In this document: positions 17,724 to 34,489 of the stretch, in pieces
How positions within the stretch are numbered: position 1 is the first letter of the stretch
Layout of the letters: each line of letters opens with the position of its first letter
Assembly (NCBI GenBank): GCA_050250375.1
Contig: JBFWOS010000003.1
Coordinates: 739,359 to 803,358 of the forward strand
Source of the DNA: Candidatus Omnitrophota bacterium
GTDB lineage: Bacteria > Omnitrophota > Gorgyraeia > Zapsychrales > Zapsychraceae
Length of the DNA stretch: 64,000 nucleotides
Direction: 5' to 3'
Notes under the pieces: generated by a model
Databases searched by the model: none
Seen by the model: the letters and a program-made list of their open reading frames with translations, nothing else
What the model was told of the DNA's origin: nothing
Position numbers and translations under genes: made by a program

Positions 17724-17725
17724 GT

Positions 17726-18583
17726 TTAAAAGTCCTTGAAAGTACTAATTTTCCACACCATATATGCTCCAAACGACCAAGAAAATCCAGCATAAATTAG
17801 CATTGTTCTACCTAATTTTGACGTGAACATATTATCAAACATTTGCGGATTGGTTGAATATATAACAAAACCGAAGCCGATAGGAAGTAAAGTTAGTACT
17901 GCGCCCTGAATTTTACCTTGAAGCGTTAGTGTATCCAAATTTTGTTGTATTTTTCTGCTTTCACGGATATTTGTAACAATGCGATTAAAAATTACAGGTA
18001 GGTTTCCGCCCGTTTCTCTTGCTAATAAGATAGCGGTAATCATTTGTTGTAATGCTATGGAGGACATCCTGTTATATAAATGATTTAGAGCTTCTTCTAA
18101 TGAAACTCCCATCTTATTTTCACCTAAGACAATCCCAAACTCTTTTCGAATGGGATCCGGCATTTCTTGTTCAACAGCTTCCATTGCCTGCACCAAACTC
18201 AATCCGCCCCGAAAAGAACTCGACATAATCATTAGCGCATCAATCAATTGACCGTCAAATTTATCCCGGTTCTTTTTGGTTAACATTTGTATATAAATAC
18301 CCGGAAATAAAAGGCCCAAAATGACGCCAAAAATAATCCCAAAAAATCGCATTTCCTCTGGAAAAATGAAATAAAACCCTGCTGCCAATATTAATGGAGC
18401 TAAAATAAATACACGACTAAGCTTCCTAGCATCTGTACGGGACATCAACTTTTCCATGTTATTGGATAGCTTTTGTTGACGGCGCTCGCTAATCACTGCG
18501 GTTCTGCTATAAACACTAGGAATAAGTTGATAGCCAATTAATGTTACTGTCGCAAATACTAATAATAAAATAATTATTAACAT
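17726..18583 (-). CDS. tadB: Tad pilus inner-membrane platform protein TadB (T2SS-F domain)
   Basis: 285 aa, T2SS-F-like (…GVSLEEALNHLYNRMSSIALQQMITAILLARETGGNLPVIFNRI…), TM helices; position in the Tad locus. Confidence 0.75.
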   Translation of the reverse strand: MLIIILLLVFATVTLIGYQLIPSVYSRTAVISERRQQKLSNNMEKLMSRTDARKLSRVFILAPLILAAGFYFIFPEEMRFFGIIFGVILGLLFPGIYIQMLTKKNRDKFDGQLIDALMIMSSSFRGGLSLVQAMEAVEQEMPDPIRKEFGIVLGENKMGVSLEEALNHLYNRMSSIALQQMITAILLARETGGNLPVIFNRIVTNIRESRKIQQNLDTLTLQGKIQGAVLTLLPIGFGFVIYSTNPQMFDNMFTSKLGRTMLIYAGFSWSFGAYMVWKISTFKDF

Positions 18584-18741
18584 TCTAAATTCCCAATTTC
18601 AATATTTTAATATAATTCTATTATACAATATAAAATTAAGATTACCAGTATTGAAAACACAATTTTTTACATTTGATATTAATCTGCGGGGGGATAATTT
18701 TGGAATTTAAGCCATTAAATCAGAAAGGTTTGAAGGCGAAG

Positions 18742-19101
18742 TTAAAGATTGCACACATCTCTGCCCCCATAACTTGAACGACAAGTTGTATTAATACATT
18801 CTTGGCAATCAATCGGGTTGGCTGTTTCCGCAACGCAATCTGGCTCACCACATGTAGCATCAAAACAAACCGCGTTATACCATAAACCTGTATTTTGCCA
18901 CCGATCGTATCCACATTCGATTGTAAGGTTTGGATCATATAGTCGACCATGACCTATCGAATCACCCACCCCTTTCCATCTCCCATATATGCCTCTTGCT
19001 ATATATTTTTGAAAGATTAACATAGCTGTCAATACAAACATTAATAATGCAATAATTTCAATTACAGATTGCGCTTTATTTGCATAAAATTTTTTTAACA
19101 T
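18742..19101 (-). CDS. Long Flp/TadE-like prepilin paralog with Cys-rich C-terminal tail
   Basis: Start placed at the internal Met (MLKKFYANKAQSVIEIIALLMFVLTAML…ARGIYGRWKGVGDSIGHGRLYDP), which aligns with the neighbouring Flp-like paralogs (KRGIQGRWKDSVDELADQYDP). C-terminus is CGYDRWQNTGLWYNAVCFDATCGEPDCVAETANPIDCQECINTTC. The longer 160-aa ORF would overlap the upstream gene. Confidence 0.5.
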   Translation of the reverse strand: MLKKFYANKAQSVIEIIALLMFVLTAMLIFQKYIARGIYGRWKGVGDSIGHGRLYDPNLTIECGYDRWQNTGLWYNAVCFDATCGEPDCVAETANPIDCQECINTTCRSSYGGRDVCNL

Positions 19102-19120
19102 AATGATCCCAAAATAATTT

Positions 19121-22100
19121 TTAAAAACCTGCCGCCGGACAGTCAATGAACGAAAATGTAAGGCCTGGTCGAACGCCGTCTTTATAATAATATTGTGCAC
19201 ATGTTTCCGATGCAATCCCCGCATTTGCTAAGATCGCATGCGAACGGTTCCAACAATTCCAATTATTTCCTGGCGCATCATCCCCCCCACAATCTGCTAA
19301 ACAGTTTCCAGAACAGGCGGGACACCCCGGCCCTCCACAGGCGGCAACACAGGCCGGTGGAGCTGCTGGGCCCGCCCCTATTCTTTTATTCATCAAAAAT
19401 GCCCCTTTAAAAGTATCGGGAGGAACAGCGGGATCAGTGATCATAATTGGCTCACAGGTAGAACCCAATGTTGCTGCGCTCATGTCCGCCCGCCCCGGAT
19501 TTGGATGAAAATATTTAAATTTCCATAACGGTTGTCCATTTGGAAAAACTAGCCCGGTGCCTGCGGTAGAATTAGGACTTTCATCAAATCTTGTAACTCT
19601 GAATTTTACAATACCATCTGTGTTAACCAACTCATAACACCTCTTAAATCCGCCCTTCTCAGTATAAGTGCGAACTTTTGGCCACTCCGGATCCGGACCT
19701 CCGCCTAAACCACAGGCATTATCACATCTTTTCGGCATTCTTCCTTCCACTTTCGTTATGTGCCAATAAGATTCTCCTCCCGGCGCGCCTAATCTAAACT
19801 GTGGTGGAATTTCGTCTTGCCAGCCATAAACTACGTGAAACGGAAAGGCATCCGGCGGATCTGCATCATAATCAAATCGTGCTTGAATTAAGTCCGCAAC
19901 TGGACCAGTTAAAAAGTCACTAAATCGATTACTTGCGGTAATTAAAAATGGTATGTGACTATTCAAATCCGTCGATATGCTACTTAAATAATCTCGACGC
20001 ATCTCTAATTTTTTACTGTGATTTTGTGCCTCTATTGCGGCTGTTCCTGTTAACTGTAACCAACCCCCAGAATTTATATCACAGATGGGATTAGCTTGAA
20101 CCAATGCATCCCTAACTAAGGTCCTAAAATTGTTTGTATTATTTAATGCGAACCCTGTACAATCAACAAATTGATCAAAAGTTCCAATAGTCGCTTGATA
20201 TGGATACGCCGCTGCCGTTGAACTTTGAGTTGCTGGCATCGCTGTACAAGAAACATTCGAGCAATTATAAACACATTGCAACATCGCCAACATATCTGGC
20301 TCATCCGCAGGATCTGCAGCCACATACGCACTTGGATCATACGTTGCCAAAGGAATAACTGAACGCGGAAGATTACTACAATTAGCTGAGCTACAAGTTA
20401 ACATACATTGCAAATATCTCCAGGTATTTCCTTGATTAGTGCCCGGACCATTAACACAACTTATATCCGGTACGCCACCATTACAAGCATAATCATACCC
20501 TTCCACATTAAAATTCATACAGGCGACAATATCTTCTAAGTCACCATCAATACCATTTCCGTTGGCATCAAAAGTAACCTCCTCATAAGGTGATACACCT
20601 GGACATCCCCTCGGGGGAATACACCACGGCGATCCACAGGCTGCACCTTGAAAACTTTGATCTCTTAAGTTAACCAACTCATCCTTAATTAATTCAATAT
20701 TGTTATGCCATATATAAAGCTTACCTGGCTGGGTTTGACACGCATTGGCTGTTACAGGATCATAATCACTATCCCACGGATAACATTGCCCGTATGGGTT
20801 CGGTGCAGACGCAGGAAAAGTGACTCCAGCTAATGGCCCTGGATCAATCCAAGCCTGCCAATCATTGAACCATTCTGTAAATTTTTGGGATAGTTGGGCC
20901 CTACTCGTTCCGAGTAGTTTATTTGCTTCTGCTATAAAAACAGTTAAATCATAGACCATATCATCTAACAAATCCTCCGGAAATAATGCGGGAGCTACAT
21001 CTAGAGGATTTGCCGCGGATGGATCTCCGCATTCGCATAAAGCAGGAATCGGATTGTTAGATGAATCGCATTCCGCAGGACAATCTGCAACCCCATTCCT
21101 ATTTGGATCCAGAAAACAATTACCATCATAATACTTTCGACACTGACCTTCATACGGCCAAGCAGTATCACCACCTATATCTCCTTCAGAACAAAACCGA
21201 TCAGCCCCTCGTTTCCAAAACGGTCCACCACCATAACTATAAGGATCCGCGCAAATATCCTGACTCATTTCAAATGAACCGGTTAAAGCCAACGTAACAT
21301 CATCAATATCTGTATCAACACAATAAGATGTTTGATATGTCAACGCCAATGGATTTTGAACCAAATCTAACTGTGTCATTAAATAAGGAAGGTTTGGATT
21401 ACATACTACTCCTCGATTAGCGTCGCACCATTTGCACCTTTGATCATTCGGATTATCAACGGGTTCTGGCGAACCTCCCGTTATAACATCGTCTAAATCA
21501 AACCCCCAATCACTAACCATATAAAGGAAAGGAAAGATTCCTATACGATTTTCAGCAACAGCTGGAGGAACAACAGTTAAACCTGAATAAAATCCAGTTG
21601 TGTCGTCTACATAATAGCCCGACCCATTCCATGGTGGTGCAAATTGTTGCGCCCAATTCGGGTCGCTCGAATCTTTGAAATATAACTGATGTTCATCATC
21701 TCTCCCGATTAATTCTCTAAATGAAAAAAAGGCATTTTCGTAATCTTCAACATAAACATCATATACCCATTGATAAAAAGTTCCAAGTGTTGGCTCTATA
21801 GCTCCATATGGACTTAAAGCCTGACAGGTTGAAGCCGTACCACACTCCAAACTAGGATTAACTGTTCCACAATTTGGATCAAAACCACAATAATCGGGAT
21901 TAGTTACAGTGATCGTATTTCCAGGGTTTGTTGGATCTGGAATATCTATTGTTGGGGGTTTTGTACAACAATCACAACAACCAGGTCTAATAGGTAATTG
22001 TCCAAACGCAGGTCCACGGGGATCAGGGGATGTCTCCGGTAAACAGCATGAACTACAAACAGATGGTATGGCTGCTGGATTAATAAAACAGGGGTGTGTT

Positions 22101-23002
22101 GGATTAGCCGCTTTATTAAATCCAAAACTGATCGGTGGAGTACCTGGAAAACTTGGCCCAGGAATATATCCTTGAGGAAGAGGATCATATAGCCCCCAGG
22201 CTGTTTGACAAGTTCCGGCAACACATTCTTCACTTGGAGCACATAATGCCCCCCCACCACAATCTGTAGTTGTTCCAGGCATTGGACCATACGGGGGCAA
22301 TTGATACACAAAATTTTGCAACTCTATTTGAAAAACTTCTGCTTCAAGGATAAAATTAATAACAATTCCCTCAAAAACTTTGTTCCAATAAAGTGAAAAA
22401 CGACTAACCACATCGTGAGCTTGCCCCAAACCATCTAAGCCAAAAGAGCCATCTGTATCAAAATCATACAAATCAGGAACTTGTTTTGAATCATTAGTCG
22501 AATTTTGCATAGAATTTCGTAAAGCTGATTCCATGAATTGATCAACCAACGGCAATATTTCGGCTGCTAAGCTGTTCCAAGCACTTGTAATGCCTGGTTG
22601 AATAACTGTAACCTGAAGGACAACATTCGCCACAGACAGTACCGCTCCAACAACAGCCAAGGCAACATAAGCCGTCGCTCCTACAGTATAAATAGCTACA
22701 ACTAACAAGATAATCGCAATGATGGCGCCTACAATTGCCCCTAAAAGGCCAGTAGAGGCACATTTTTTTCTTTCTCCTCCCAACTGTGTCATTAATAGAG
22801 AATGACCATAGCTTGCCATAGCGGACGCTAAGGATGCAGCCCCTTGATTAGAGCCGATCTGTGTTGATGTCTTATTTTGACCTACTCGACCTAAATTAAG
22901 CGTAACCGCATAAAATATCAAAGCAAAAGCAACTATAAGCAAAATAACAACTGAAACTTGGCCATTTTTTTTAATTAATGATTTTTTTGAAAAAATGTGC
23001 AT
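19121..23002 (-). CDS. 1293-aa TadG-like pilus-associated protein. N-terminal TadE/G-type hydrophobic segment plus extra TM helices; extremely Cys/Pro/Gly/Asp-rich extracellular region.
   Basis: N-term KKNGQVSVVILLIVAFALIFYAV resembles the TadE/TadG N-domain but lacks Glu at +5. More than 60 Cys arranged in CxxC/CC/CxC clusters (e.g. CSSCCLPETSPDP…PGCCDCCTKPP; C-terminus CVAACGGPGCPACSGNCLADCGG). Sits between the tadB/C genes and the TadE-like genes. Confidence 0.6.
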   Translation of the reverse strand: MHIFSKKSLIKKNGQVSVVILLIVAFALIFYAVTLNLGRVGQNKTSTQIGSNQGAASLASAMASYGHSLLMTQLGGERKKCASTGLLGAIVGAIIAIILLVVAIYTVGATAYVALAVVGAVLSVANVVLQVTVIQPGITSAWNSLAAEILPLVDQFMESALRNSMQNSTNDSKQVPDLYDFDTDGSFGLDGLGQAHDVVSRFSLYWNKVFEGIVINFILEAEVFQIELQNFVYQLPPYGPMPGTTTDCGGGALCAPSEECVAGTCQTAWGLYDPLPQGYIPGPSFPGTPPISFGFNKAANPTHPCFINPAAIPSVCSSCCLPETSPDPRGPAFGQLPIRPGCCDCCTKPPTIDIPDPTNPGNTITVTNPDYCGFDPNCGTVNPSLECGTASTCQALSPYGAIEPTLGTFYQWVYDVYVEDYENAFFSFRELIGRDDEHQLYFKDSSDPNWAQQFAPPWNGSGYYVDDTTGFYSGLTVVPPAVAENRIGIFPFLYMVSDWGFDLDDVITGGSPEPVDNPNDQRCKWCDANRGVVCNPNLPYLMTQLDLVQNPLALTYQTSYCVDTDIDDVTLALTGSFEMSQDICADPYSYGGGPFWKRGADRFCSEGDIGGDTAWPYEGQCRKYYDGNCFLDPNRNGVADCPAECDSSNNPIPALCECGDPSAANPLDVAPALFPEDLLDDMVYDLTVFIAEANKLLGTSRAQLSQKFTEWFNDWQAWIDPGPLAGVTFPASAPNPYGQCYPWDSDYDPVTANACQTQPGKLYIWHNNIELIKDELVNLRDQSFQGAACGSPWCIPPRGCPGVSPYEEVTFDANGNGIDGDLEDIVACMNFNVEGYDYACNGGVPDISCVNGPGTNQGNTWRYLQCMLTCSSANCSNLPRSVIPLATYDPSAYVAADPADEPDMLAMLQCVYNCSNVSCTAMPATQSSTAAAYPYQATIGTFDQFVDCTGFALNNTNNFRTLVRDALVQANPICDINSGGWLQLTGTAAIEAQNHSKKLEMRRDYLSSISTDLNSHIPFLITASNRFSDFLTGPVADLIQARFDYDADPPDAFPFHVVYGWQDEIPPQFRLGAPGGESYWHITKVEGRMPKRCDNACGLGGGPDPEWPKVRTYTEKGGFKRCYELVNTDGIVKFRVTRFDESPNSTAGTGLVFPNGQPLWKFKYFHPNPGRADMSAATLGSTCEPIMITDPAVPPDTFKGAFLMNKRIGAGPAAPPACVAACGGPGCPACSGNCLADCGGDDAPGNNWNCWNRSHAILANAGIASETCAQYYYKDGVRPGLTFSFIDCPAAGF

Positions 23003-23020
23003 TCTTACCGACCCATTAAA

Positions 23021-23299
23021 TTAATTTGTCCAAATTGCGTTCATATCTGAACCACCTGAAAAATAAGGAGAAATTTGTTTTATTTGCTCACTATCCGCGG
23101 GATCAACATAACCTCTAGTTCCTGTAGATCTTAATACTGTGTCATGCTTTTGCCTTCGGTCGGTAAACTCCCTTCCGCTCCATTCAAAAATTTTTGTAAG
23201 TGAATAAATCATTAAGAAAACTATAATCATGCACAAAGTAAATTCAATCATTACTTGACCAAGTTTTTTTGATCTATCTTTCCTTTGCAAGCGCAACAT
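23021..23299 (-). CDS. tadE: TadE-like minor pseudopilin
   Basis: 92 aa; N-term KKLGQVMIEFTLCMIIVFLMIY has the class-III prepilin G/xxxxEF motif followed by a TM helix. Confidence 0.65.
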   Translation of the reverse strand: MLRLQRKDRSKKLGQVMIEFTLCMIIVFLMIYSLTKIFEWSGREFTDRRQKHDTVLRSTGTRGYVDPADSEQIKQISPYFSGGSDMNAIWTN

Positions 23300-23325
23300 A
23301 ATTTCGAACTCCTACCGTAACAGCA

Positions 23326-24618
23326 TTATTTCAAATATTGCACATTTGGATCATTGTCCGTGGGGGTAATCCATTTCCTTCCATGTTTATCTACAATTCG
23401 ACTTCTAACAAAAATAATAGGATCTAAGGTTCCTGGTCCGGCTGTAACCATGCATGTTCTGGTAAAATTAGCAGCATTAAAACAGCATAAATTATCCGGA
23501 CAGCAAACTTCTACAGGATTTGTAATAGATGCTGTCCAACCCGCTTGATTTCCTAAAATTGTTCCGGGCAAAACAACCGTTGTCCCATCACAAAATCTGC
23601 GAGTATCATAGCTTAATTGTAATGTACGCTGAATAATATCTACTGAATCCTTCCTTTGAGCTGATCGTACATATCTTCTAGTATCCCCGCTAACTTCATA
23701 CAATTTCCCTTCATCAATTAATAAGTACGTTCCTACGCCATCCCCGGAAGCCAAGGGATTTTTACTATAAGTGTACATTTGAACATCCTGATTTGAAAAA
23801 CCAGGCGATGGCCGGGTTTCATCAGGGCTAAAGGATAGATCCCCTTCCTGAAAATCCATAACATCGACCGAAATATTCCCATTCTTTCCTAAAACTCTCT
23901 CTGTAAAACCATCGCCATCCACATCCACTAATGTAAACGCGCCGCTCTCCGTATCTATTTGACTTGGATCTGCAGCAATCCACTGCCACCAAAATGCATC
24001 ACAATTCGTATTATCAACGCCATCGTCCAATAAACCATTTTGATCCAAATCAAATCTGTAATGTGTCACTCCCCCAACGACATCAAAACAACTATTTACA
24101 TTACCACCACATCTACAAAAATCTGTAGCAGGATGATTATATTGCTGCTTAAAAACTCCCTGATTAAGGGGATATGTCCTTAAGCTTGCCGCTGTTAAAG
24201 GAAAATGAACTCCATTTACAAAAAAATCAGTCATCGGTAAATTTGCAAACTCCCCTGGATCCACGGGCATAAATAAATTTCTGGAATGTGAGGCGGAACC
24301 AGTCGCTATTTGAGGCGTTCGATCAATCGCACCATATTTCGCTGATTGTGCAGTTAAACGATCTTCCAAAATAAACACTGTGGCAGAATTACGAGAGGCC
24401 GTTCCATCTTGCCAATTTCCTGGTGGAGCTTTTATTCCCTCACTATACTCAAATGAAGTTAACATAGCCATTCTAAAGGCCTTTAAACGAGTATCTTGCT
24501 GGTAAGAAGAACCTAAAATTGTCCTTACAATAAGTCCCACCAAAAATATTACGACCGCCCCAAATACGGCCAATTCTAATGTTGTCTGTGCTTTTTGCAT
24601 ATAATTAAAAGTCATCAA
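23326..24618 (-). CDS. Large (430 aa) TadE/pseudopilin-like protein with Asp-rich putative Ca-binding repeats
   Basis: N-term KAQTTLELAVFGAVVIFLVGLIV is prepilin-like. C-terminal half has FDLDQNGLLDDGVDNTNCD and VDVDGDGFTE motifs (DxDxDG-type). Confidence 0.55.
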   Translation of the reverse strand: MMTFNYMQKAQTTLELAVFGAVVIFLVGLIVRTILGSSYQQDTRLKAFRMAMLTSFEYSEGIKAPPGNWQDGTASRNSATVFILEDRLTAQSAKYGAIDRTPQIATGSASHSRNLFMPVDPGEFANLPMTDFFVNGVHFPLTAASLRTYPLNQGVFKQQYNHPATDFCRCGGNVNSCFDVVGGVTHYRFDLDQNGLLDDGVDNTNCDAFWWQWIAADPSQIDTESGAFTLVDVDGDGFTERVLGKNGNISVDVMDFQEGDLSFSPDETRPSPGFSNQDVQMYTYSKNPLASGDGVGTYLLIDEGKLYEVSGDTRRYVRSAQRKDSVDIIQRTLQLSYDTRRFCDGTTVVLPGTILGNQAGWTASITNPVEVCCPDNLCCFNAANFTRTCMVTAGPGTLDPIIFVRSRIVDKHGRKWITPTDNDPNVQYLK

Positions 24619-24627
24619 TATTGTATG

Positions 24628-24942
24628 TTAATATGCCCCGACGGCAATTGATCCCCTTCTTAAATCCAAAGAATTAGTGCTGTCAATTCTTGTCGTTTGT
24701 AGCCCCAACGGCGTGTCGATTGAAAACAAAGTTGTTTCTGTATTTGATAATAATGTATGAAGTACGCTCGTATTAGCCGTTCTTGGATCATATTGATCAG
24801 CCAATTCATCTACTGAATCTTTCCAGCGCCCCTGAATACCTCTTTTGAAATAATTAGATGAAGCCAATAGTGCCCCCATAATGATGATCAATAAAACAGA
24901 ATATTCTATTGCGGATTGCCCTTTTTTTAATTTTTTTAACAT
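24628..24942 (-). CDS. Flp-like prepilin paralog (104 aa)
   Basis: MLKKLKKGQSAIEYSVLLIIIMGALLA: class-III signal G/QSAIEY plus TM helix; conserved KRGIQGRWKD segment; SD upstream. Confidence 0.65.
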   Translation of the reverse strand: MLKKLKKGQSAIEYSVLLIIIMGALLASSNYFKRGIQGRWKDSVDELADQYDPRTANTSVLHTLLSNTETTLFSIDTPLGLQTTRIDSTNSLDLRRGSIAVGAY

Positions 24943-24957
24943 AATAAATCCCCATTT

Positions 24958-25308
24958 TTAATTAGGATTTGGTTGTACCCCTAAATTAATTACTGCATTA
25001 GTATAAATAAACACAACATCATCATACACATAGTTCATAACGCCGGCTACATCATTCGTTCGTTTATTGACATCGGCTCTTGAAATCGAAAATGAACTAT
25101 CCAAATGGCTTTGAGACATATCATTAAATCTCTGATCCGCTAAATTCTGAACACCAATTTGATCAGCTACAAGCTTAGTCCATCCTTGCGAGGACCTTCT
25201 AACCATCGGCCCCATAGCGGCCATAATCGCAATTATTGTTGCTAGAATAATTGTGTACTCTATCGCCGATTGTGCTAACCGCTTTTTGTATTTAGTTAAT
25301 CTAAGCAT
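24958..25308 (-). CDS. Flp-like prepilin paralog (116 aa)
   Basis: KKRLAQSAIEYTIILATIIAIMAAMG: A/QSAIEY motif plus TM helix. Confidence 0.6.
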   Translation of the reverse strand: MLRLTKYKKRLAQSAIEYTIILATIIAIMAAMGPMVRRSSQGWTKLVADQIGVQNLADQRFNDMSQSHLDSSFSISRADVNKRTNDVAGVMNYVYDDVVFIYTNAVINLGVQPNPN

Positions 25309-25313
25309 ATATT

Positions 25314-25709
25314 TTAATCAGCATTTACTGGAGACGCCGTCGTGCTGACTGAACCCGTACTTGTCGTTTCACTTAAACTTTTACGAAATATTCCAGATGA
25401 CAATGGATACGAAGGTAAATCTTGACTGATATTGTCTACGGTTCGTACAACATCAGATACGCTACTAGTATAATAGGGTTCATATTGTATATATACGTTT
25501 GTGCCAGCATAGGCAGTACCAACACGCGTTCTGACAGTATTCAACATAGAATTGTGCGCGTCTCTTACTCTAGCCTGAATAGCTCTTCTGAAATATGCTG
25601 ACATCCCGGAAATTACTGCAATTGCAACAAAAAAAACAATAACATATTCACTTGAAATCATTTGAGCTTTTTGGCTTATAATTTTTTTGTTTTTAAGAAT
25701 TCTAAGCAT
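25314..25709 (-). CDS. Flp-like prepilin paralog (131 aa), divergent
   Basis: SQKAQMISSEYVIVFFVAIAVISGMSAYFRRAIQARVRDA: prepilin-like motif with 6-residue spacing; shares the RRAIQARVRDA segment with the 26283 gene. Confidence 0.5.
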   Translation of the reverse strand: MLRILKNKKIISQKAQMISSEYVIVFFVAIAVISGMSAYFRRAIQARVRDAHNSMLNTVRTRVGTAYAGTNVYIQYEPYYTSSVSDVVRTVDNISQDLPSYPLSSGIFRKSLSETTSTGSVSTTASPVNAD

Positions 25710-25784
25710 AATTAGTTAATAACCCTGATACTAATATTATACATTACTACTCATAAAAACACCAAAATTAATTATAGTCATTGA

Positions 25785-25842
25785 AAGTTTTAAAAACAAA
25801 ACATGGCTTACCTGAGAAAATTTACTTCTCAAGTAAGCCATG
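25785..25842 (-). terminator. Strong hairpin plus U-tract inside the pilin gene array (intrinsic terminator/attenuator)
   Basis: catggcttacctgagaa / ttctcaagtaagccatg form a 17-bp stem with one mismatch and a 7-nt loop (25802..25842). On the minus strand it is followed by TTTTGTTTTT. Lies about 45 nt downstream of the stop of gene 25889..26218. Confidence 0.55.
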
Positions 25843-25888
25843 CATTGTGAATGTTTTTTAATAACATATTGTGATTAATTACACAATA

Positions 25889-26218
25889 TTAGTTACCCCA
25901 AAACTCCTGATTAACGTTCATAACTGATGAATTCATCAGATCAGTTGTTACTTCAGCTTTTGTTAAAGTTGATTGCGTAACGCCTGACAAGAACGTATCT
26001 TGTGTTTGAGATGAAGTAACCATTTTCTTAATAACATTAGTATTACCTGTTGAGAATTGGTCACCGATGTCATCAGCAGCACTCTTCAATCGTCCTTGAA
26101 CACCACGTTTGATGTATACCTGGATAGACAAAAGGGCACCGATAATGATGATAATCAGAATCGCATATTCCAATGTACTCTGACCTTTTTTTCTATTTTT
26201 GTTAAAATACTTAAGCAT
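25889..26218 (-). CDS. Flp-like prepilin paralog (109 aa)
   Basis: KKGQSTLEYAILIIIIIGALLSIQVYIKRGVQGRLK; AGGAGG SD 8-12 nt upstream. Confidence 0.65.
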   Translation of the reverse strand: MLKYFNKNRKKGQSTLEYAILIIIIIGALLSIQVYIKRGVQGRLKSAADDIGDQFSTGNTNVIKKMVTSSQTQDTFLSGVTQSTLTKAEVTTDLMNSSVMNVNQEFWGN

Positions 26219-26282
26219 TGATATATCCTCCTAAATTAATCCTCTAACATAATCGCAGAGGGATTAAGTTATTAACTTCTGA

Positions 26283-26642
26283 TTACAGACCTTGAATTAA
26301 CCCCAGGGTTGTATTATATGACGATTGTTGAAAACCACCAATACCTCTACTTCGTTGGTCTTCTAACTCTGTGCGTGTCGTAGTATTGTCCAATAATTGA
26401 GATTGAACTGAGTTAGTACTAACTAGGTAGTTTGTTGTTAAGTAGTATGGTTCATACTGGTTTGTTGTACCCAATGCCGCTGATTGCGTAGTTAGATACT
26501 GCCCAGCATCACGAACCCTCGCTTGTAGAGCGCGTTGAGCGTATGTCTGCATCGCAATAATACCCGCAACAACCAGAGAGATAAGGATTGCATATTCAGC
26601 GGTATTTTGCGCCTTTTTATTTTTAATTAACTTTCTAAACAT
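26283..26642 (-). CDS. Flp-like prepilin paralog (119 aa)
   Basis: KKAQNTAEYAILISLVVAGIIAMQTYAQRALQARVRDA; AGGAGG SD upstream. Confidence 0.6.
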   Translation of the reverse strand: MFRKLIKNKKAQNTAEYAILISLVVAGIIAMQTYAQRALQARVRDAGQYLTTQSAALGTTNQYEPYYLTTNYLVSTNSVQSQLLDNTTTRTELEDQRSRGIGGFQQSSYNTTLGLIQGL

Positions 26643-26691
26643 TTATTTATCCTCCTAAGATTAAATTCACAAAAAATTGAATTTTCGAGCA

Positions 26692-26913
26692 TTAGTTAGA
26701 TGTAGGCCGTGATGTAAGTAATCGGTTGGCCATATCTTCCATACCATTGGTGCCCGTAGCTAATGTACCGTTAAACGCCGTTCGGAAAATACCACCAGGC
26801 CCTAGAAAAACAAGTAGGGCAGCCAAAACAGCAGCTACCAAGATGATATACTCAACGGTACTCTGACCTTTCTTTTTCTTTTTAGGGTTATTCACAATAT
26901 TCCTTTTAAGCAT
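26692..26913 (-). CDS. Flp-family pilin (73 aa)
   Basis: KKKKKGQSTVEYIILVAAVLAALLVFLGPGG: classic Flp G/xxxxEY plus TM; AGGAGG SD. Confidence 0.7.
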   Translation of the reverse strand: MLKRNIVNNPKKKKKGQSTVEYIILVAAVLAALLVFLGPGGIFRTAFNGTLATGTNGMEDMANRLLTSRPTSN

Positions 26914-26970
26914 TGTATTCCTCCTTAAAAAAGTTCACTTTAGGATAATCTCCGTTGGAAAAATAACGGA

Positions 26971-27138
26971 TTACTGATTTCTGGATTCTTGAAGTATTAT
27001 CTGTTGTGTAGCTTGAACCGATCTAAATACATAGGTACTCATGGCAATAGCCGCTGCTGCCACAATAGTTGCGATTAAGGCATATTCTAATATGCTTTGG
27101 CCTGTTTTGTTGTTTCTAATTTCTTGTTTTAGCCTCAT
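26971..27138 (-). CDS. flp: Flp pilin (55 aa). Not in the ORF track because it is under 60 aa; first gene of the pilin array.
   Basis: Manual translation: MRLKQEIRNNKTGQSILEYALIATIVAAAAIAMSTYVFRSVQATQQIILQESRNQ. Textbook Flp size and motif. Confidence 0.7.
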   Translation of the reverse strand: MRLKQEIRNNKTGQSILEYALIATIVAAAAIAMSTYVFRSVQATQQIILQESRNQ

Positions 27139-27313
27139 CGTAACCACCTTATGTACTTCTCAGATAATCTTTGCTCTTATCACATTATTTTGCGACTGAA
27201 TCCTAAGAGCTATATTGCCAAATCTAGGTATAAAATAACCCTAGACTTGACACTTCAAAATGACCCAAAAGTCATTCTGAAGAATAAAACACCTAATCAG
27301 GTGTGCACAACTC

Positions 27314-27343
27314 AAAAAAAAGCCTCTATATTTTTATAGAGGT
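27314..27343 (-). terminator. Intrinsic terminator after the upstream Tad operon (HTH gene), before the pilin-array promoter region
   Basis: cctctata / tatagagg 8-bp stem with a 4-nt loop, followed on the minus strand by U8 (A8 on the plus strand at 27314..27321). Confidence 0.55.
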
Positions 27344-27538
27344 TATATCTTAATTCAATAATTCTTTCAAAGAACTATAAGAACATCTATTTATTAAGTT
27401 ACTATATAATAAATCTTTCATCAAATTCTCCAAGCAGAATTTCATATTAAATACTGTATATAAATGTTCAAAGTGTTAAAAGTATAGCATATGAATCACT
27501 GCTGTCAAGGCGAAATGCCAAACTATTTAATAATTTAA

Positions 27539-29248
27539 TTATACCCTAATTTTTACACATCTTCCGAAAGAATCGAGGACGTCTCTATTATTTAAAACCT
27601 TCATCGCGTCATTAATTAGACAAAAAAGTGGTGCGCTTTCTTTAATATCCAAGGTAAAGATTAATTCATTTTCCTGAAAATCGACTGTCCCGCAAATTTT
27701 ATAAATTTCTATAAGTATATTATTTTCAATGTCATAAGAATCATCTATTTTAAAATAATGACAAATCATGTAAGTTCTTAGAAAGTTATATACCTTCATA
27801 TAAATATCCTTTAAATGACAAAAATCTGCAAGATCTTGTTCTTTTTGCGCATGAGCTGTTAAAATTGACTTTTCAGGTGAAAAATCTACCTTAGACTCAC
27901 CAATTTTTTCCAAATATCGGCTAATAACATAATTATATCCTTCTTTTAGATTTGTAATTATTGCAAATAACGGGGCCAGATTCTCCCCCTTCCAAACTGT
28001 CAAAACTGTTAAATCCCCCTTTAATCCATCTACTTTTTTATTAAAATAGTCCGTTTTTGTTGTAGTATACAAGATTGCCTCTTTGCAACTCCAAACCTTA
28101 AAACATTCTTTAGGTGCCCATTGTGAGGCTTTTGTAATTTTTGTAAAGTTTATATTATTTTCAAAAACACCAAAGGCAAATTTTCTACGAAACTGGGGGA
28201 TAAATGAAAAGCTTGCTAAAATATTATCGGCATCCTTGGTTCCAATTACACAAATTTCTTCTATCTTATAACCGTCTACTCCCTCTAAAGCACCCATTAG
28301 ATCAAAAAAGTCATTTGAGAATATATCTTCAGATAAGTGATCAACCATTATTAGTGGATGCGTATTGTTTATGATGAAATTCGATAATTTGTCCAATGAG
28401 GTTTTCAATGGAAAAAAACTTTTTATAACTGTATCCGCACCAATTAATTCTGTAAGATTTGCGTTTAATTTTATTGCTTTTTTGTTTTCTAGTCTAATTA
28501 AAAAACCACCAACCTGACTTAATAACTGATCTAATTCAAGTTCTAACTTTGAAATCATCGAAAGCCTAGTATTCATTTTTATCTCTTCGTCCAATATTTG
28601 TGTAGTAATGCTCAAATCTTTAATCTGGTCCGTAATAGACAAAAACAAATTTAAATCCCTATTTTCTTGAATTATATCTAAAGCCACATACATAAATACG
28701 GAATTACAAAATTTATCATACACTTCTTTGTTATGATCTGTATTATATGCCTGCATTAATGTCCCCAGGAATCCTTCTTCTAAATTTTCTAAAAATGCTA
28801 ATTTTAAGAAAATTAGTCCTGCATATTTAATATTTATCTGCGAAAGAGAGACATCAACAGCATTTTTAATCAAAACCGCTTTTTGTTCAGTTAAACTAAC
28901 ACCTGAACCTGTTGAATTCTGATTGGACAAAAATTCATTTTTAGTTTTTACAGAATTTGTATCTTTTGGAAGAGGTATCTTGTGTAGCTCTTTTGAGATT
29001 TGCTGTTTCTTCTCAGAGGGTATTTGAAATTTTTTATTCTTTTCTTCAATTTTCTTACTAGGACGTCCCACTGAATTACTTAAATTAGTACTTTTAATGA
29101 TTGAATTTACGGATGATTTCGAAACTTTAATTTTAAATTTCTCAGAAGTCAATTCGGCTAATTCTCTACAACCAAATTTTGGATTATCCCTTTTCTGATC
29201 AATTATAAAATTTATTACATCTTGTTTAAGTTTATGTGTAACGCCCAT
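27539..29248 (-). CDS. Hypothetical 569-aa protein with N-terminal helix-turn-helix-like segment; inside the Tad locus
   Basis: Start placed at MGVTHKLKQDVINFIIDQKRDNPKFGCRELAELTSEKFKIKVSKSSVNSIIK (HTH-like). The annotated 619-aa ORF would overlap the DUF192 gene. The rest of the protein has no domain I can recognise by eye. Confidence 0.5.
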   Translation of the reverse strand: MGVTHKLKQDVINFIIDQKRDNPKFGCRELAELTSEKFKIKVSKSSVNSIIKSTNLSNSVGRPSKKIEEKNKKFQIPSEKKQQISKELHKIPLPKDTNSVKTKNEFLSNQNSTGSGVSLTEQKAVLIKNAVDVSLSQINIKYAGLIFLKLAFLENLEEGFLGTLMQAYNTDHNKEVYDKFCNSVFMYVALDIIQENRDLNLFLSITDQIKDLSITTQILDEEIKMNTRLSMISKLELELDQLLSQVGGFLIRLENKKAIKLNANLTELIGADTVIKSFFPLKTSLDKLSNFIINNTHPLIMVDHLSEDIFSNDFFDLMGALEGVDGYKIEEICVIGTKDADNILASFSFIPQFRRKFAFGVFENNINFTKITKASQWAPKECFKVWSCKEAILYTTTKTDYFNKKVDGLKGDLTVLTVWKGENLAPLFAIITNLKEGYNYVISRYLEKIGESKVDFSPEKSILTAHAQKEQDLADFCHLKDIYMKVYNFLRTYMICHYFKIDDSYDIENNILIEIYKICGTVDFQENELIFTLDIKESAPLFCLINDAMKVLNNRDVLDSFGRCVKIRV

Positions 29249-29315
29249 AATTATTTCAACGTTCCAGATTGGACAAAAACTTAGTATAACAAGAGTTTTC
29301 AAGGCGGTCAATGAC

Positions 29316-29657
29316 TTACTGAAAGATAATTTTGTCCCCCAATTCACTTTTTGATATAGAAATGGCTCCAACCGGTAATTCAATCGCAACCGAAGCATTC
29401 CAATAAATCCTACTCATTTGATTAGGTTTTATATTTTTGATTAAACCAACTACTTTCTTTGAATTATTAACAAAAATTACGTCTATTGCAAATTTCATAA
29501 AAAACATATGAATAGAATTACACCGGGTAATAACTAGCGCCTCATTGTTTAAAAGTTGTTCATGTTTCAGCAATCCAATCATTCTGGACAAAAATGTATC
29601 TGCGATTTTTGCTTTGTTTGCAATAACCGTTTTTTTCGAATCATTAAAAATAATCAT
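29316..29657 (-). CDS. DUF192 (COG1430) family protein
   Basis: 113 aa; …FLSRMIGLLKHEQL…ALVITRCNSIHMFFMKFAIDVIFVN… matches the DUF192 signature pattern (GLMGR…C.SIHTFFMRFPIDV.F) as I recall it. Confidence 0.5.
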   Translation of the reverse strand: MIIFNDSKKTVIANKAKIADTFLSRMIGLLKHEQLLNNEALVITRCNSIHMFFMKFAIDVIFVNNSKKVVGLIKNIKPNQMSRIYWNASVAIELPVGAISISKSELGDKIIFQ

Positions 29658-29687
29658 AAATTAGAAGAGATTTATTATGGTTTGATT

Positions 29688-31853: not shown

Positions 31854-31913
31854 ACCTTACTTTCAAAAATAAACAATTGAATTAAAATATTGAAAAGGTA
31901 TTATATCCCGCTG

Positions 31914-33590: not shown

Positions 33591-33592
33591 AT

Positions 33593-34474: not shown

Positions 34475-34489
34475 AATTTCTCACCTCAA

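What the first reader, a model, noticed from the sequence alone, without database searches (positions are those of the whole stretch)
18742..27138. Expanded array of eleven class-III prepilin-like genes in one Tad locus
Seven genes of 55-131 aa start with a basic stretch, then G/A-Q-x-x-x-E-Y, then a TM helix. That is the Flp/TadE processing motif. Two TadE-like genes (92 and 430 aa), the Cys-tailed gene at 18742..19101 and the 1293-aa protein carry related N-termini. Model Tad loci have one or two flp genes plus tadE and tadF. Here most paralogs are 2-3 times longer than a canonical Flp, with C-terminal globular extensions and a shared K/RRG-IQ-GRWKD segment. Each of the first four genes is preceded by a strong AGGAGG SD. 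A strong hairpin terminator (25785..25842) sits after those four, which suggests differential stoichiometry between major and minor pilins. This looks like a heteropolymeric or decorated Tad pilus that is not described for model systems.
Basis: partly seen in the sequence, partly recalled or inferred. Interest (0 to 1): 0.75.

Follow-up and report, generated by a model that had tools for sequence, protein, structure and literature searches.

The report
Omnitrophota Tad locus with eleven pilins
This is the pilin gene block of a Tad-type pilus machine that Omnitrophota bacteria (suspected nano-predators) keep next to their giant surface-protein gene; its eleven pilin-like genes are a fixed, phylum-wide set rather than a local expansion, and the locus type has already been reported in outline.

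Summary
Ten minus-strand genes between 18742 and 27138 carry a basic leader, G/A|Q-x-x-x-E-[YFLI] and a hydrophobic helix. Shuffled sequence gives 0-1 such ORFs. The 1293-aa protein has G|Q but no Glu, plus two extra hydrophobic helices, so it is TadG-like and not a prepilin.

The window comes from a Candidatus Omnitrophota MAG, near oriC. The block lies inside a Tad (type IVc) locus: PPIase, RcpC, secretin-TonB_C, TadZ-TadA fusion, DUF192, an HTH protein, the pilins, TadB, TadC, then a giant gene of more than 5000 aa.

In 39 other species' loci every one of the eleven genes has a positional ortholog, and 29 of 39 loci have exactly the same order. This is an ancient fixed set, not an expansion. 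Also conserved are a strong promoter upstream, AGGAGG sites on genes 2-4, and a covarying RNA hairpin terminator after gene 4.

AlphaFold2 predicts the 104-aa pilin as a helix plus a long beta-hairpin. It predicts the 430-aa protein as a pilin-like helix plus a beta domain with no PDB match.

West-Roberts et al. (2023) already noted this locus and its "class III signal peptide" genes. Herrou et al. (2025) described composite Tad pili with minor-pilin tips. I call it a new variant of a known kind.

The parts
27481..27508 (-). Near-consensus sigma-70 promoter with extended -10 (TTGACA-16-TG-n-TATACT), about 340 nt upstream of the first pilin gene
   Evidence: Found by the consensus scan. The same CTTGACA...TGnTATACT element lies 180-460 nt upstream of the p55 ortholog in 38 of 62 loci. 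It is one of the few conserved pieces of this intergenic region by blastn.
27323..27342 (-). Hairpin plus U8 inside the long 5' leader of the pilin operon; role unknown, possibly an attenuator
   Evidence: Terminator-like site found by the scan. Conserved only in close relatives L003 and L004. No Rfam match.
26971..27138 (-). p55: canonical-size Flp pilin (leader, G|QSILEY, about 42-aa mature helix). Single copy in every locus.
   Evidence: The window protein hits Flp_Fap at 20 bits, below the 32.2-bit cutoff. 27 of 29 orthologs hit Flp_Fap, best E 3.2e-7. Mean ortholog identity is 0.56.
26692..26913 (-). p73: short Flp/class-III pilin and first gene of the p73-p119-p109 cassette. Preceded by AGGAGG.
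   Evidence: PF04021 at 28.4 bits, above the 23.7-bit cutoff. An SD site with at least 5 of 6 matches occurs in 91% of loci. The cassette is duplicated as a unit in L044, L075 and L081.
26283..26642 (-). p119: long Flp-like pilin (A|QNTAEY, conserved QYEPYY). Preceded by AGGAGG.
   Evidence: SD site present in 100% of loci. hhalign probability to p131, p109 and p104 is 99-99.8.
25889..26218 (-). p109: long Flp-like pilin (G|QSTLEY, KRGVQGRLK), highly conserved and a candidate abundant subunit. Preceded by AGGAGG.
   Evidence: 1350 database clusters, with the top 120 hits at least 72% identical. Mean ortholog identity 0.55. hhalign to p104 gives probability 99.9.
25791..25843 (-). RNA hairpin (19-bp stem, core GGCUUAC...GUAAGCC) plus U-run. 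Acts as an intrinsic terminator or attenuator between the high- and low-expression pilin blocks.
   Evidence: A strong hairpin plus T-run sits at this position in 28 of 36 loci. In RNAalifold, 11 of 18 pairs show compensatory changes and G.U pairs occur on the sense strand only.
25314..25709 (-). p131: long Flp-like pilin with Glu at +6, weak SD. First gene after the terminator.
   Evidence: An SD site with at least 5 of 6 matches occurs in only 12% of loci. Homologous to p104 over 101 columns.
24958..25308 (-). p116: long Flp-like pilin (A|QSAIEY), tightly packed against its neighbours, weak SD.
24628..24942 (-). p104: long Flp-like pilin with invariant Y-x-KRG-x-QGRW...D...QY-P.
   Evidence: 37-sequence alignment. 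AlphaFold2 gives helix 11-48 and a beta-hairpin at 56-77/80-101, mean pLDDT 76. 116 GTDB species genomes encode a relative. 3671 clusters at 50% identity have E<=1e-3.
23326..24615 (-). E430: large pseudopilin (A|QTTLEL) with 10 Cys and a conserved Asp-rich VDVDGD segment.
23021..23299 (-). E92: TadE-like pseudopilin (G|QVMIEF).
   Evidence: 17 of 31 orthologs hit PF07811 TadE, best E 6e-5, below the cutoff. Q15 and E19 are invariant.
19121..23002 (-). G1293: TadG-like, Cys-rich (58 Cys) 1293-aa protein. It has G|Q but no Glu, and two further hydrophobic helices at aa 80-138. Candidate tip or anchor component.
   Evidence: 4 of 32 N-termini hit PF13400 Tad, best E 1.6e-4. No other Pfam family in 27 orthologs. 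Many Cys are conserved.
18742..19101 (-). C119: p104-like N-terminal half (A|QSVIEI, ARGIYGRWKG) fused to an 8-Cys tail.
   Evidence: hhalign to p104 gives probability 99.6 over 51 columns. Cys are conserved in orthologs.
16842..18583 (-). tadB-like (17726-18583) and tadC-like (16842-17723) platform genes, which close the operon.
   Evidence: One T2SSF domain each. Present downstream in 38 of 39 loci.
27539..35440 (-). Upstream machinery genes: HTH protein X619 (27539-29248), DUF192 (29316-29657), TadZ-TadA fusion (29688-31853), secretin with TonB_C (31914-33590), RcpC/CpaB (33593-34474) and a SurA-like PPIase (34490-35440).
   Evidence: Pfam and NCBIfam hits. Same order in other species.
36713..36928 (-). 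Orphan twelfth prepilin-like gene, p73-like (A|QSLAEY...RPGGMF), between mdh and a CN-hydrolase gene.
   Evidence: Regex hit. No Pfam family at E<=0.001.
2..15235 (-). 5' part of the giant gene that follows the Tad locus. More than 5000 aa lie inside the window, and the gene is called as 7782 aa on the matching contig.
   Evidence: A homolog follows tadC within 10 kb in 20 of 39 loci. This linkage is reported by West-Roberts et al. 2023.

Best explanation
The region is the complete pilin and pseudopilin gene set of the Tad-like (type IVc) filament machine that Omnitrophota keep directly upstream of their giant membrane-protein gene.

Shown:
- There are ten prepilin genes and one TadG-like gene. 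Each has a 1:1 positional ortholog across the phylum.
- They sit in one co-oriented gene block between the ATPase/secretin genes and tadB/tadC.
- A conserved strong promoter, strong ribosome-binding sites on genes 2-4, and a conserved RNA hairpin terminator after gene 4 divide the block in two. The first part is p55, p73, p119, p109. The second part is p131, p116, p104, E430, E92, G1293, C119, followed by tadB and tadC.

Inferred:
- A prepilin peptidase encoded elsewhere cuts after Gly/Ala and leaves an N-terminal Gln.
- The first block supplies the abundant filament subunits.
- Read-through of the terminator supplies small amounts of the second block. Those products form the priming, adapter and tip assembly, by analogy with KilK/KilO plus KilL/M/N in the Myxococcus Kil pilus and with the minor pilins of type IV pili and type II secretion systems.
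- The Cys-rich proteins (E430, C119, and the large exposed part of G1293) form the distal end that contacts a host or prey cell.
- G1293 lacks Glu at +5, as the tip-most subunit does in other type IV filaments.
- The long pilins add beta-hairpins to an otherwise all-helical Flp shaft.
- The machine works together with the downstream giant protein in cell attachment.
For: - Machinery identity.
- Organism and locus.
- Motif well above chance.
- Pilin families at ortholog level: Flp_Fap in 27 of 29, TadE in 17 of 31, Tad/TadG-like in 4 of 32, PF04021 above its cutoff for p73.
- All long pilins are homologous to each other, hhalign probability 98-99.9.
- Strict synteny in 39 species' loci, 29 of them identical in order.
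- The first four genes are the most conserved: 0.50-0.56 mean identity against 0.33-0.44 for the rest. p109 has 1350 clusters, with the top hits at least 72% identical.
- SD sites with at least 5 of 6 matches occur in 91-100% of loci for p73, p119 and p109, against 9-45% for the later genes. A hairpin plus T-run follows p109 in 28 of 36 loci.
- The hairpin covaries (11 of 18 pairs) and has sense-strand G.U pairs.
- A promoter is conserved in 38 of 62 loci, and no full sigma-70 match occurs between p109 and p131.
- Pilin-like AlphaFold2 models for p104 and E430.
- Cys are confined to E430, G1293 and C119, like the disulfide-rich Kil tips.
- The p73-p119-p109 cassette was duplicated as a unit three times.
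- Residual co-evolution splits the genes into the same two groups.
- Published context: the Tad complex is expressed in V. archaeovorus co-culture, and the locus is conserved upstream of giant genes.
Against: - There are no expression, processing or filament data for these genes.
- Most Pfam matches are below their gathering thresholds.
- No Peptidase_A24 gene lies in the 64-kb window.
- Which gene encodes the major pilin is unresolved. p55 has the weaker SD (36% of loci). In the Kil system the short Flp proteins are adapters, not the shaft.
- p55 co-varies with E430 rather than with p73/p119/p109, which fits p55 belonging to the tip-side group.
- The two extra hydrophobic helices of G1293 argue against its extraction from the membrane into a filament.
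- Only monomers could be modelled.
- Partial Mantel tests over-call significance when sequences share phylogeny.
Confidence: 0.6

Rival explanations
1. The machine is a type II secretion-like system. The many pilins form a short periplasmic pseudopilus piston that pushes the giant protein, or other substrates, through the secretin. No external adhesive pilus is made.
For: - West-Roberts et al. call it a T2SS-like locus that always precedes the giant gene.
- A giant-gene homolog follows tadC in 20 of 39 loci.
- Multiple low-abundance pseudopilins plus a secretin is the T2SS layout.
- A SurA-like PPIase is encoded in the locus.
Against: - The parts are Tad-type. The ATPase scores best against a TadA-family model (TIGR03819, 323 bits), against about 43 bits for GspE.
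- The platform is split into two one-domain T2SSF genes. CpaB passes its NCBIfam cutoff. A TadZ domain is present.
- No GspC/L/M-like genes are present.
- The giant protein starts with a transmembrane segment, and the giant proteins are reported to have numerous transmembrane regions. That makes an unlikely secretin substrate.
Confidence: 0.15
2. Two separate assemblies are encoded. p73, p119 and p109 form their own heteromeric fibre or sheath. p55 together with the seven downstream genes forms a conventional Flp pilus with its tip complex.
For: - p73-p119-p109 is duplicated as a unit without p55.
- Residual co-evolution: p73-p109 r=0.50, p119-p109 r=0.42. p55 correlates with E430 (r=0.37) but not with p109 (r=-0.05).
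- In L075 the p55 gene sits after the cassettes, next to p131.
Against: - Only one ATPase, platform and secretin set is present.
- In the normal arrangement p55 lies upstream of the terminator, together with the cassette.
- All the proteins share the same N-terminal assembly helix with Glu.
- The Mantel statistics are only suggestive.
Confidence: 0.15
3. The small genes are interchangeable alternative major pilins, used one at a time for antigenic or host-range variation. This would resemble the multiple flp genes of Bdellovibrio or the PilA1-6 set of Haloferax.
For: - Several paralogs have the same N-terminus.
- Some species carry extra copies of p73 or of the whole cassette.
- An orphan p73-like gene lies elsewhere in the window.
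Against: - Each paralog has kept its own conserved sequence features and its own position across about 40 species. That indicates distinct, non-redundant roles.
- One promoter and tight spacing imply co-expression.
- There are no inversion or recombination repeats. This was seen only in passing and was not searched exhaustively.
Confidence: 0.07
4. The N-terminal motifs are chance matches, or the genes are decaying pseudogenes.
For: The Pfam scores for most of the window proteins are below their cutoffs.
Against: - Shuffled sequence gives 0-1 motif hits against 12 observed.
- Orthologs are intact and conserved along their full length in about 40 species, and thousands of database clusters exist.
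- The models are confident.
Confidence: 0.01

Closest known systems
Conserved 'type II secretion-like' / Tad locus upstream of Omnitrophota giant genes (West-Roberts et al. 2023, bioRxiv 10.1101/2023.11.21.568195; Tad complex of Ca. Velamenicoccus archaeovorus in Seymour et al. 2023, PMC10066038)
   Same: This is the same locus type. [quoted passage not shown] It is conserved across the phylum. In V. archaeovorus the locus also lies close to the start of the chromosome (12382-29832).
   Different: In the passages I read, those papers do not resolve the small genes. They give no count, orthology, cassette structure, regulatory signals, structural predictions or TadE/TadG-like assignments. Those details come from this analysis.
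Myxococcus xanthus Kil Tad pilus with interchangeable tips (Herrou et al. 2025, PMC12075869)
   Same: Both are Tad-type machines in a predator or suspected predator. Both combine a major pilin, small all-helical Flp adapter pilins transcribed at very low levels, and TadE/F/G-like minor pilins. In Kil the minor pilins bundle their N-terminal helices into a disulfide-rich tip, with one very large subunit (KilN) at the extremity.
   Different: Here all pilin genes lie in one operon rather than in several dispersed tip clusters. There is a family of five or six long pilins of about 105-130 aa, with a beta-hairpin predicted for the one that was modelled (p104). Four genes, not one, carry high-expression signals. 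The large protein has two extra hydrophobic helices and no Glu at +5. No T3SS* partner is seen in the window. The Kil tip HMM families were reported as restricted to Myxococcota, so homology to them was not shown.
Canonical Tad loci (Aggregatibacter flp-1...tadG; Caulobacter pilA-cpa)
   Same: Shared parts are the TadA/CpaF ATPase, TadB+TadC, the RcpA/CpaC secretin, RcpC/CpaB, TadZ/CpaE, an Flp pilin with G|xxxxEY, TadE-like pseudopilins and a TadG-like protein.
   Different: No tadV/cpaA peptidase and no tadD or rcpB in the locus. TadZ is fused to TadA. The secretin carries a TonB_C domain. DUF192, an HTH protein and a PPIase are added. There are ten prepilins instead of three or four. The +1 residue is nearly always Gln. 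From my own knowledge, the mature N-termini of Aggregatibacter Flp1 and Caulobacter PilA start with Val and Ala respectively.
Methanococcus maripaludis Epd (EppA-dependent) pili (Nair et al. 2013, PMC3875500; Denise et al. 2019, PMC6668835)
   Same: The signal-peptide signature is identical: a short basic leader ending in Gly, Gln at +1 and Glu at +5. It matches the same Pfam family (PF04021/DUF361; JGI names some homologs UPF0333). Both have many small pilin paralogs, one major pilin plus several essential minor ones, and two separate platform genes. Tad is thought to derive from an Epd-like system.
   Different: This is a bacterial, diderm system with a secretin and RcpC. No EppA gene is seen in the window. 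The long beta-hairpin pilins and the Cys-rich giant pseudopilins have no described Epd counterpart.
Minor-pilin priming complexes of type IVa pili and type II secretion (FimU-PilVWXE; GspH-I-J-K)
   Same: The logic is the same. A low-abundance set of four or five pilin-like proteins, encoded together, primes assembly and sits at the tip. From my own knowledge, the tip-most subunit GspK is large and lacks Glu5.
   Different: The machinery lineage is different (Tad, not T4aP or T2SS). There is no sequence or fold match, since E430 has no PDB neighbour.

Membership tests
Tad / type IVc pilus machinery | TadA/CpaF-family secretion ATPase | tested here: met
   T2SSE domain at 1.4e-58. The best NCBIfam hit is the TadA-family model TIGR03819 at 323 bits, below its 373-bit equivalog cutoff.
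Tad / type IVc pilus machinery | Two adjacent platform genes, each with a single T2SSF domain (TadB and TadC) | tested here: met
   17726-18583 and 16842-17723 each carry one PF00482 domain. The pair is present in 38 of 39 related loci.
Tad / type IVc pilus machinery | RcpA/CpaC secretin and RcpC/CpaB | tested here: met
   Secretin plus T2SS-T3SS_pil_N domains. RcpC matches PF16976 at 4e-24. CpaB TIGR03177 scores 104.7 bits, above its 71-bit cutoff.
Tad / type IVc pilus machinery | TadZ/CpaE ParA/MinD-like protein | tested here: met
   Present as the N-terminal domain (aa 3-240; AAA_31, ParA, CbiA) of the 721-aa ATPase, so it is a fusion. The fusion length of 718-774 aa is conserved in other loci.
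Tad / type IVc pilus machinery | Dedicated prepilin peptidase (TadV/CpaA, Peptidase_A24) in the locus | tested here: not met
   No Peptidase_A24 hit in any ORF of at least 120 aa in the 64-kb window. No unassigned gene lies between the PPIase and the giant gene in related loci. A peptidase elsewhere in the genome could not be checked.
Tad / type IVc pilus machinery | TadD / RcpB outer-membrane accessory proteins | tested here: not met
   Every ORF of the locus is accounted for, and none gives a TPR or lipoprotein-type hit.
Flp pilin (Pfam PF04964 Flp_Fap) | Score above the Pfam gathering threshold; short all-helical protein with G|xxxxEY | tested here: inconclusive
   The window's p55 scores 20.4 bits against a 32.2-bit cutoff. 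27 of 29 orthologs match, best E 3.2e-7. The motif and the size (about 42 aa mature) fit. In a weak alignment to the mature PilA/Flp chains 8u1k and 8u2b (E about 2), chain residue 4 aligns with profile position 17. By offset, Gln at profile position 14 then falls at +1.
TadE/TadF pseudopilins (Pfam PF07811) | TadE N-terminal domain | tested here: inconclusive
   E92 scores 16 bits against a 22.9-bit cutoff. 17 of 31 orthologs match, best E 6e-5. E430 matches in only 1 of 30 orthologs, but its model has a pilin-like helix plus a beta domain.
TadG (Pfam PF13400 Tad) | TadG-type N-terminal membrane helix followed by a large extracytoplasmic domain | tested here: inconclusive
   4 of 32 N-termini match PF13400, best E 1.6e-4, and 1 of 27 full-length orthologs. 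The architecture fits: an N-terminal helix followed by about 1150 aa rich in Cys. No vWA or other known domain was found.
Archaeal class III signal peptide / EppA-type pilins (PF04021, DUF361) | Short basic leader ending in Gly, Gln at +1, Glu at +5; Pfam match | tested here: met
   G|Q or A|Q occurs in nearly all orthologs of ten families. p73 scores 28.4 bits, above the 23.7-bit cutoff. p109 and p104 are sub-threshold. The signature is as described for EppA substrates.
Archaeal class III signal peptide / EppA-type pilins (PF04021, DUF361) | Processing by an EppA-type peptidase; archaeal Epd machinery without a secretin | tested here: not met
   The genome is bacterial (dnaA-dnaN-gyrBA, YidC, SurA-like PPIase) and the locus has a secretin and RcpC. 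No peptidase gene is in the window.
Kil-type predatory Tad system (Myxococcus) | KilL/M/N (TadE/F/G-like) heterotrimeric disulfide-rich tip plus Flp adapter pilins | not testable with these tools
   There is an analogous gene content: E92, E430 and G1293, with Cys counts of 1, 10 and 58. The Kil tip HMMs are reported as restricted to Myxococcota.
Type II secretion system | GspE/F/D together with GspC, L, M and the G-H-I-J-K pseudopilins (N-methyl motif) | tested here: not met
   Only superfamily-level similarity was found: GspE TIGR02533 at 43 bits against a 630-bit cutoff, and GspD at 136 against 351. No GspC/L/M is present. The platform is split. The pilins carry the Flp/class-III motif, not the G|F/M-xxxE N_methyl motif.

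The most novel reading that the evidence does not exclude
Omnitrophota build a truly heteropolymeric Tad filament. Its repeating unit would be a fixed trio, p73-p119-p109, which is co-duplicated, co-evolving and equally strongly translated, possibly one pilin per start of the three-start Tad helix. The C-terminal beta-hairpins of the long pilins would form an outer beta layer around the helical core. The filament would be primed by p55 and three adapter pilins. It would be capped by a disulfide-rich complex of more than 1800 aa (E430, E92, G1293, C119). The hydrophobic helical hairpin of that cap, together with the adjacent giant protein, would engage or breach the envelope of a host or prey cell. 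No Tad pilus with several stoichiometric shaft subunits or a beta-hairpin coat has been described.
Probability: 0.15. Interest if true: 0.8.

Novelty: new variant of a known kind. Interest (0 to 1): 0.5.

Why it matters
Omnitrophota are widespread, mostly ultra-small, uncultured bacteria thought to live as predators or parasites. Their Tad locus and the adjacent giant gene are the main genomic candidates for how they attach to other cells.

This analysis shows that the "many small genes" in that locus are a fixed set of ten prepilins plus a TadG-like protein. The set has a conserved two-tier expression design and two co-evolving modules. That turns a vague annotation into a parts list that can be tested by:
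- complex structure prediction;
- re-analysis of existing V. archaeovorus proteomes and transcriptomes;
- cryo-tomography.

It also adds an independent case to the recent idea, from Myxococcus, that Tad pili are customised by minor-pilin tips. It documents bacterial Tad pilins that keep the archaeal Epd-type Gln(+1) signature, which bears on the proposed archaeal origin of Tad systems.

Tried and rejected
1. Pore-forming stem reading of the p104 beta-hairpin. The top Foldseek hits were the stem hairpins of aerolysin, lysenin and iota toxin, but none was significant (best E 0.1). The hydropathy profile across 37 homologs is mostly Ser/Thr/Asn/Asp/Arg and shows no alternating lipid-facing side. 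I dropped the idea as unsupported.
2. The hairpin after p109 as a DNA operator for the HTH protein. The spacer between the conserved half-sites varies by more than 10 nt, and G.U pairs exist on one strand only. It is therefore an RNA element. The invariance of the GGCUU/AAGCC core in alignment A8 partly reflects my regex selection. By eye, about 23 of 36 full loci have that core, and the others have unrelated hairpins at the same place.
3. The 619-aa gene as an insertion sequence. Its Pfam and NCBIfam hits are weak and cover only a transposase-type HTH. It is present at the same position in 36 of 39 loci, and 11 of 29 orthologs give the same HTH hit. It is a locus component, not a mobile element.
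4. Known RNA families. Rfam, at E-value up to 1, found nothing in 15000-37500.
6. Sequence conservation of the 1.6-kb gap between tadC and the giant gene. None was found.
7. A second promoter between p109 and p131. There was no full sigma-70 match in 59 loci. Some loci have -10-like TATAAT boxes, so weak internal promoters are not excluded.
8. A prepilin peptidase gene. None is in the window.

Full report
**1. What is in the sequence**

On the minus strand between 27138 and 18742 lie eleven ORFs. I name them by length:
- p55: 26971-27138
- p73: 26692-26913
- p119: 26283-26642
- p109: 25889-26218
- p131: 25314-25709
- p116: 24958-25308
- p104: 24628-24942
- E430: 23326-24615
- E92: 23021-23299
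- G1293: 19121-23002
- C119: 18742-19101

Ten of them begin with a short Lys/Arg-rich leader, then G or A, then Q-x-x-x-E-[Y/F/L/I], then about 20 hydrophobic residues. A regex for this pattern finds them, plus one further gene at 36713-36928. Twenty shuffles of the window give 0-1 hits.

There are two deviations. p131 has one extra residue before the Glu (AQMISSEY), which is a family trait. G1293 has G-Q but Val in place of Glu, and it has a second hydrophobic stretch at aa 80-138.

The shared post-helix segment is real. Y-x-x-[KR]-R-[GA]-x-Q-[GA]-R is present in p55, p119, p109, p131, p104 and C119.

Genes 2-4 are preceded by AGGAGG and gene 1 by AAGGTGG. A 19-bp hairpin with a T-run sits at 25843-25791.

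**2. Context and organism**

The flanking genes make this a Tad (type IVc) locus:
- one-domain T2SSF genes at 17726-18583 and 16842-17723;
- a 721-aa protein with a ParA/MinD-type domain fused to a T2SSE ATPase;
- a secretin carrying a TonB_C domain;
- a DUF192 protein;
- RcpC/CpaB, above its NCBIfam cutoff, and a SurA-like PPIase.

The ATPase scores best against a TadA-family model and poorly against GspE and PilB.

Downstream of tadC, after a 1.6-kb AT-rich gap, an ORF of more than 5000 aa runs off the window. The other side holds gyrA, gyrB, dnaN and dnaA, and the GC skew switches sign there. So the locus lies about 20 kb from oriC.

The p104 protein is identical to a protein of a Candidatus Omnitrophota MAG. 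The same locus is found on an 87-kb metagenomic contig, where the giant gene is called as 7782 aa.

No prepilin peptidase is encoded anywhere in the window.

**3. Are they pilins?**

Single-sequence Pfam scores are mostly sub-threshold. Only p73 passes a cutoff, and it is for PF04021, the archaeal "class III signal peptide" family.

Scanning sets of orthologs gives consistent answers:
- the p55 family hits Flp_Fap in 27 of 29 members;
- the E92 family hits TadE in 17 of 31;
- the G1293 N-terminus hits the TadE/G-like family PF13400 in 4 of 32;
- E430 and the rest of G1293 match nothing.

Profile-profile comparison of the ortholog families shows the relationships. p119, p109, p131, p116 and p104 are homologous over 52-103 columns, with probabilities of 97.6-99.9. 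C119 shares the first 60 or so columns. p55 and p73 share only the N-terminal 26-51 columns. E92 and E430 share about 20-30 columns.

AlphaFold2 with a 37-sequence alignment predicts p104 as a helix (11-48) followed by a long two-stranded beta-hairpin at 56-77/80-101, with strand pLDDT of 82-93.

With a 56-sequence alignment, E430 is predicted with pLDDT 80.6 and pTM 0.76. It has a 56-residue N-terminal helix on a large beta-rich domain, which is a pilin-like architecture. The domain has no PDB neighbour.

Cysteines are absent from the seven small pilins. They are concentrated in E430 (10), C119 (8) and G1293 (58).

**4. Comparison across genomes**

A scan of one genome per GTDB species with the p104 alignment found relatives in 116 genomes. 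I examined 80 loci. Most are labelled Omnitrophota; many of the rest carry auto-assigned Planctomycetales-type labels.

In the 39 loci of at least 18 kb, best-hit labelling of ORFs gives the following order: PPIase, RcpC, secretin, TadZ-TadA, DUF192, HTH protein, p55, p73, p119, p109, p131, p116, p104, E430, E92, G1293, C119, TadB, TadC and, where the flank reaches far enough, the giant gene.

The eleven-gene order is identical in 29 of 39 loci. The other ten differ by a duplicated p73-p119-p109 cassette, an extra p73-like gene, a split G1293, an E92 that went undetected (L044, L081), ambiguous labels between close paralogs, or, in L078, an irregular order.

The set therefore predates the radiation of these lineages.

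The first four genes are the most conserved, at 0.50-0.56 mean pairwise identity. The others are at 0.33-0.44. p109 alone has 1350 database clusters, and its 120 best hits are at least 72% identical. The p104 profile finds 3671 clusters at 50% identity with E<=1e-3.

Cleavage-site residues are G|Q or A|Q almost everywhere.

**5. Regulation**

A near-consensus promoter with an extended -10 box (window 27508-27481) lies 180-460 nt upstream of p55 in 38 of 62 loci.

SD sites with at least 5 of 6 matches to AGGAGG precede p73, p119 and p109 in 91-100% of loci. They precede p55 in 36% of loci and the later genes in only 9-45%.

Gaps between the first four genes are about 50 nt. The gap between p109 and p131 is about 158 nt. 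After that the gaps are 8-26 nt.

A strong hairpin plus T-run follows p109 in 28 of 36 loci. In 40 aligned copies, 11 of 18 pairs show compensatory changes. G.U pairs occur on the sense strand and the loop length varies, so this is an RNA structure on the pilin mRNA. The conserved GGCUUAC/GUAAGCC core is partly an effect of how I selected the copies.

No full promoter match lies between p109 and p131. This is the signature of one operon with an attenuated distal part.

**6. Modules**

The p73-p119-p109 trio has been duplicated as a unit at least three times, with copies 43-92% identical. p55 was never duplicated with it.

I also regressed out the divergence of the machine core (TadZ-TadA, TadB, TadC) in 24 genomes and compared the residual distances:
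- p73-p109 correlate at r=0.50 and p119-p109 at r=0.42 (permutation p about 0.001);
- the downstream genes correlate among themselves (r=0.33-0.49);
- p55 correlates with E430 (r=0.37);
- cross-module pairs do not correlate (r=-0.14 to 0.11).

Partial Mantel tests are liberal when sequences share phylogeny, so this is a lead and not a proof.

**7. Most likely mechanism**

Shown: gene content, homology classes, conservation, and signals for two expression tiers.

Inferred:
- A peptidase encoded elsewhere cleaves at G/A|Q.
- The promoter-proximal block supplies the abundant filament subunits.
- Terminator read-through supplies small amounts of the long adapter-type pilins p131, p116 and p104.
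- The TadE-like E92, the large E430 and C119, and the TadG-like G1293 prime assembly and form a Cys-rich distal complex.

This mirrors the Myxococcus Kil pilus. There a major pilin, Flp adapters transcribed at very low levels, and disulfide-rich TadE/F/G-like trimers with one very large subunit form the tip.

G1293 lacks Glu at +5, which fits a tip-most position. From my own knowledge, GspK in type II secretion also lacks Glu5. On the other hand, the two extra hydrophobic helices of G1293 fit a membrane anchor better, so its placement is open. Which gene encodes the shaft subunit is also open.

The constant linkage to the giant gene and the reported expression of the Tad complex in V. archaeovorus co-culture point to cell-cell attachment.

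**8. Relation to what is known, and novelty**

The locus type is published. West-Roberts et al. describe the conserved secretion-system locus upstream of giant genes and mention the class III signal peptide genes. Seymour et al. describe Tad complexes in Omnitrophota. A 2026 preprint confirms the linkage.

Composite Tad pili with tips were shown in 2025.

The Gln(+1)/Glu(+5) signature equals that of the archaeal EppA substrates. That is in line with the proposed Epd-like origin of Tad.

I did not find the following described in the papers I could search:
- the fixed eleven-gene set and its two-tier, two-module organisation;
- the family of long pilins and the beta-hairpin predicted for p104;
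- the E430 fold;
- the architecture of G1293;
- the conserved terminator and promoter.

I therefore rate it a new variant of a known kind, of moderate interest.

Noticed in passing
window 2-15235 (-): A giant ORF of more than 5000 aa runs off the window start. It is Gly/Ala/Leu/Ser-rich and has an N-terminal transmembrane segment at about aa 78-95. On the matching contig it is called as 7782 aa. A homolog follows tadC in 20 of 39 related loci.
   Followed up: partly
window 15236-16841: A 1.6-kb AT-rich stretch (about 32% GC) between tadC and the giant gene. It holds no ORF of 40 aa or more apart from one 56-aa ORF next to the giant-gene start, and it has no Rfam hit. A gap of similar size exists in close relatives, but the sequence is not conserved.
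   Followed up: partly
window 27539-29248 (-): A 569-aa protein with a transposase-type helix-turn-helix at its N-terminus and about 480 aa that match nothing. It looks like an IS remnant, and the region has low GC. Yet it sits between DUF192 and the first pilin gene in 36 of 39 loci, so it is a conserved component and possibly the regulator of the locus.
   Followed up: partly
window 29316-29657 (-): A DUF192 (PF02643) gene is conserved between the ATPase gene and the HTH gene. A DUF192 gene next to Tad genes was also reported in Bulleidia and Helcococcus (PMC12786226). Its function is unknown.
   Followed up: partly
window 29688-31853 (-) and 31914-33590 (-): Two domain fusions are conserved across the phylum. 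The ParA/MinD-like TadZ is fused to the TadA ATPase (718-774 aa in other loci). The secretin carries a C-terminal TonB_C domain.
   Followed up: partly
window 36713-36928 (-): An orphan twelfth prepilin-like gene (71 aa, p73-like) lies about 10 kb from the locus, between the malate/lactate dehydrogenase gene and a CN-hydrolase gene. Some other species carry an extra p73-like gene inside the locus instead (L038, L049, L061).
   Followed up: partly
window 27139-27538 (-): The conserved promoter implies a 5' leader of about 330 nt ahead of p55. In this genome the leader contains a hairpin followed by eight U (27342-27323). This could be an attenuator or a small RNA. It matches no Rfam family.
   Followed up: partly
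window 25805-25839; loci L003-L080: The terminator hairpin after p109 keeps the same stem sequence (A)UGGCUUAC...GUAAGCCAU in about two thirds of species, although their proteins are only about 50% identical. That is unusual for an intrinsic terminator and hints at recognition by a protein or an RNase.
   Followed up: partly
loci L044, L075, L081: The p73-p119-p109 trio is tandemly duplicated as a cassette, with copies 43-92% identical. In L075 the p55 gene has moved to a position behind the two cassettes.
   Followed up: yes
window 35680-47516 and 46000-48000: The window spans the replication origin region. It contains dnaA, dnaN, gyrB and gyrA, and the GC skew changes sign at about 46-48 kb. 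The Tad locus lies within about 20 kb of the origin. The Tad locus of V. archaeovorus is likewise at 12-30 kb of its chromosome (PMC10066038).
   Followed up: no
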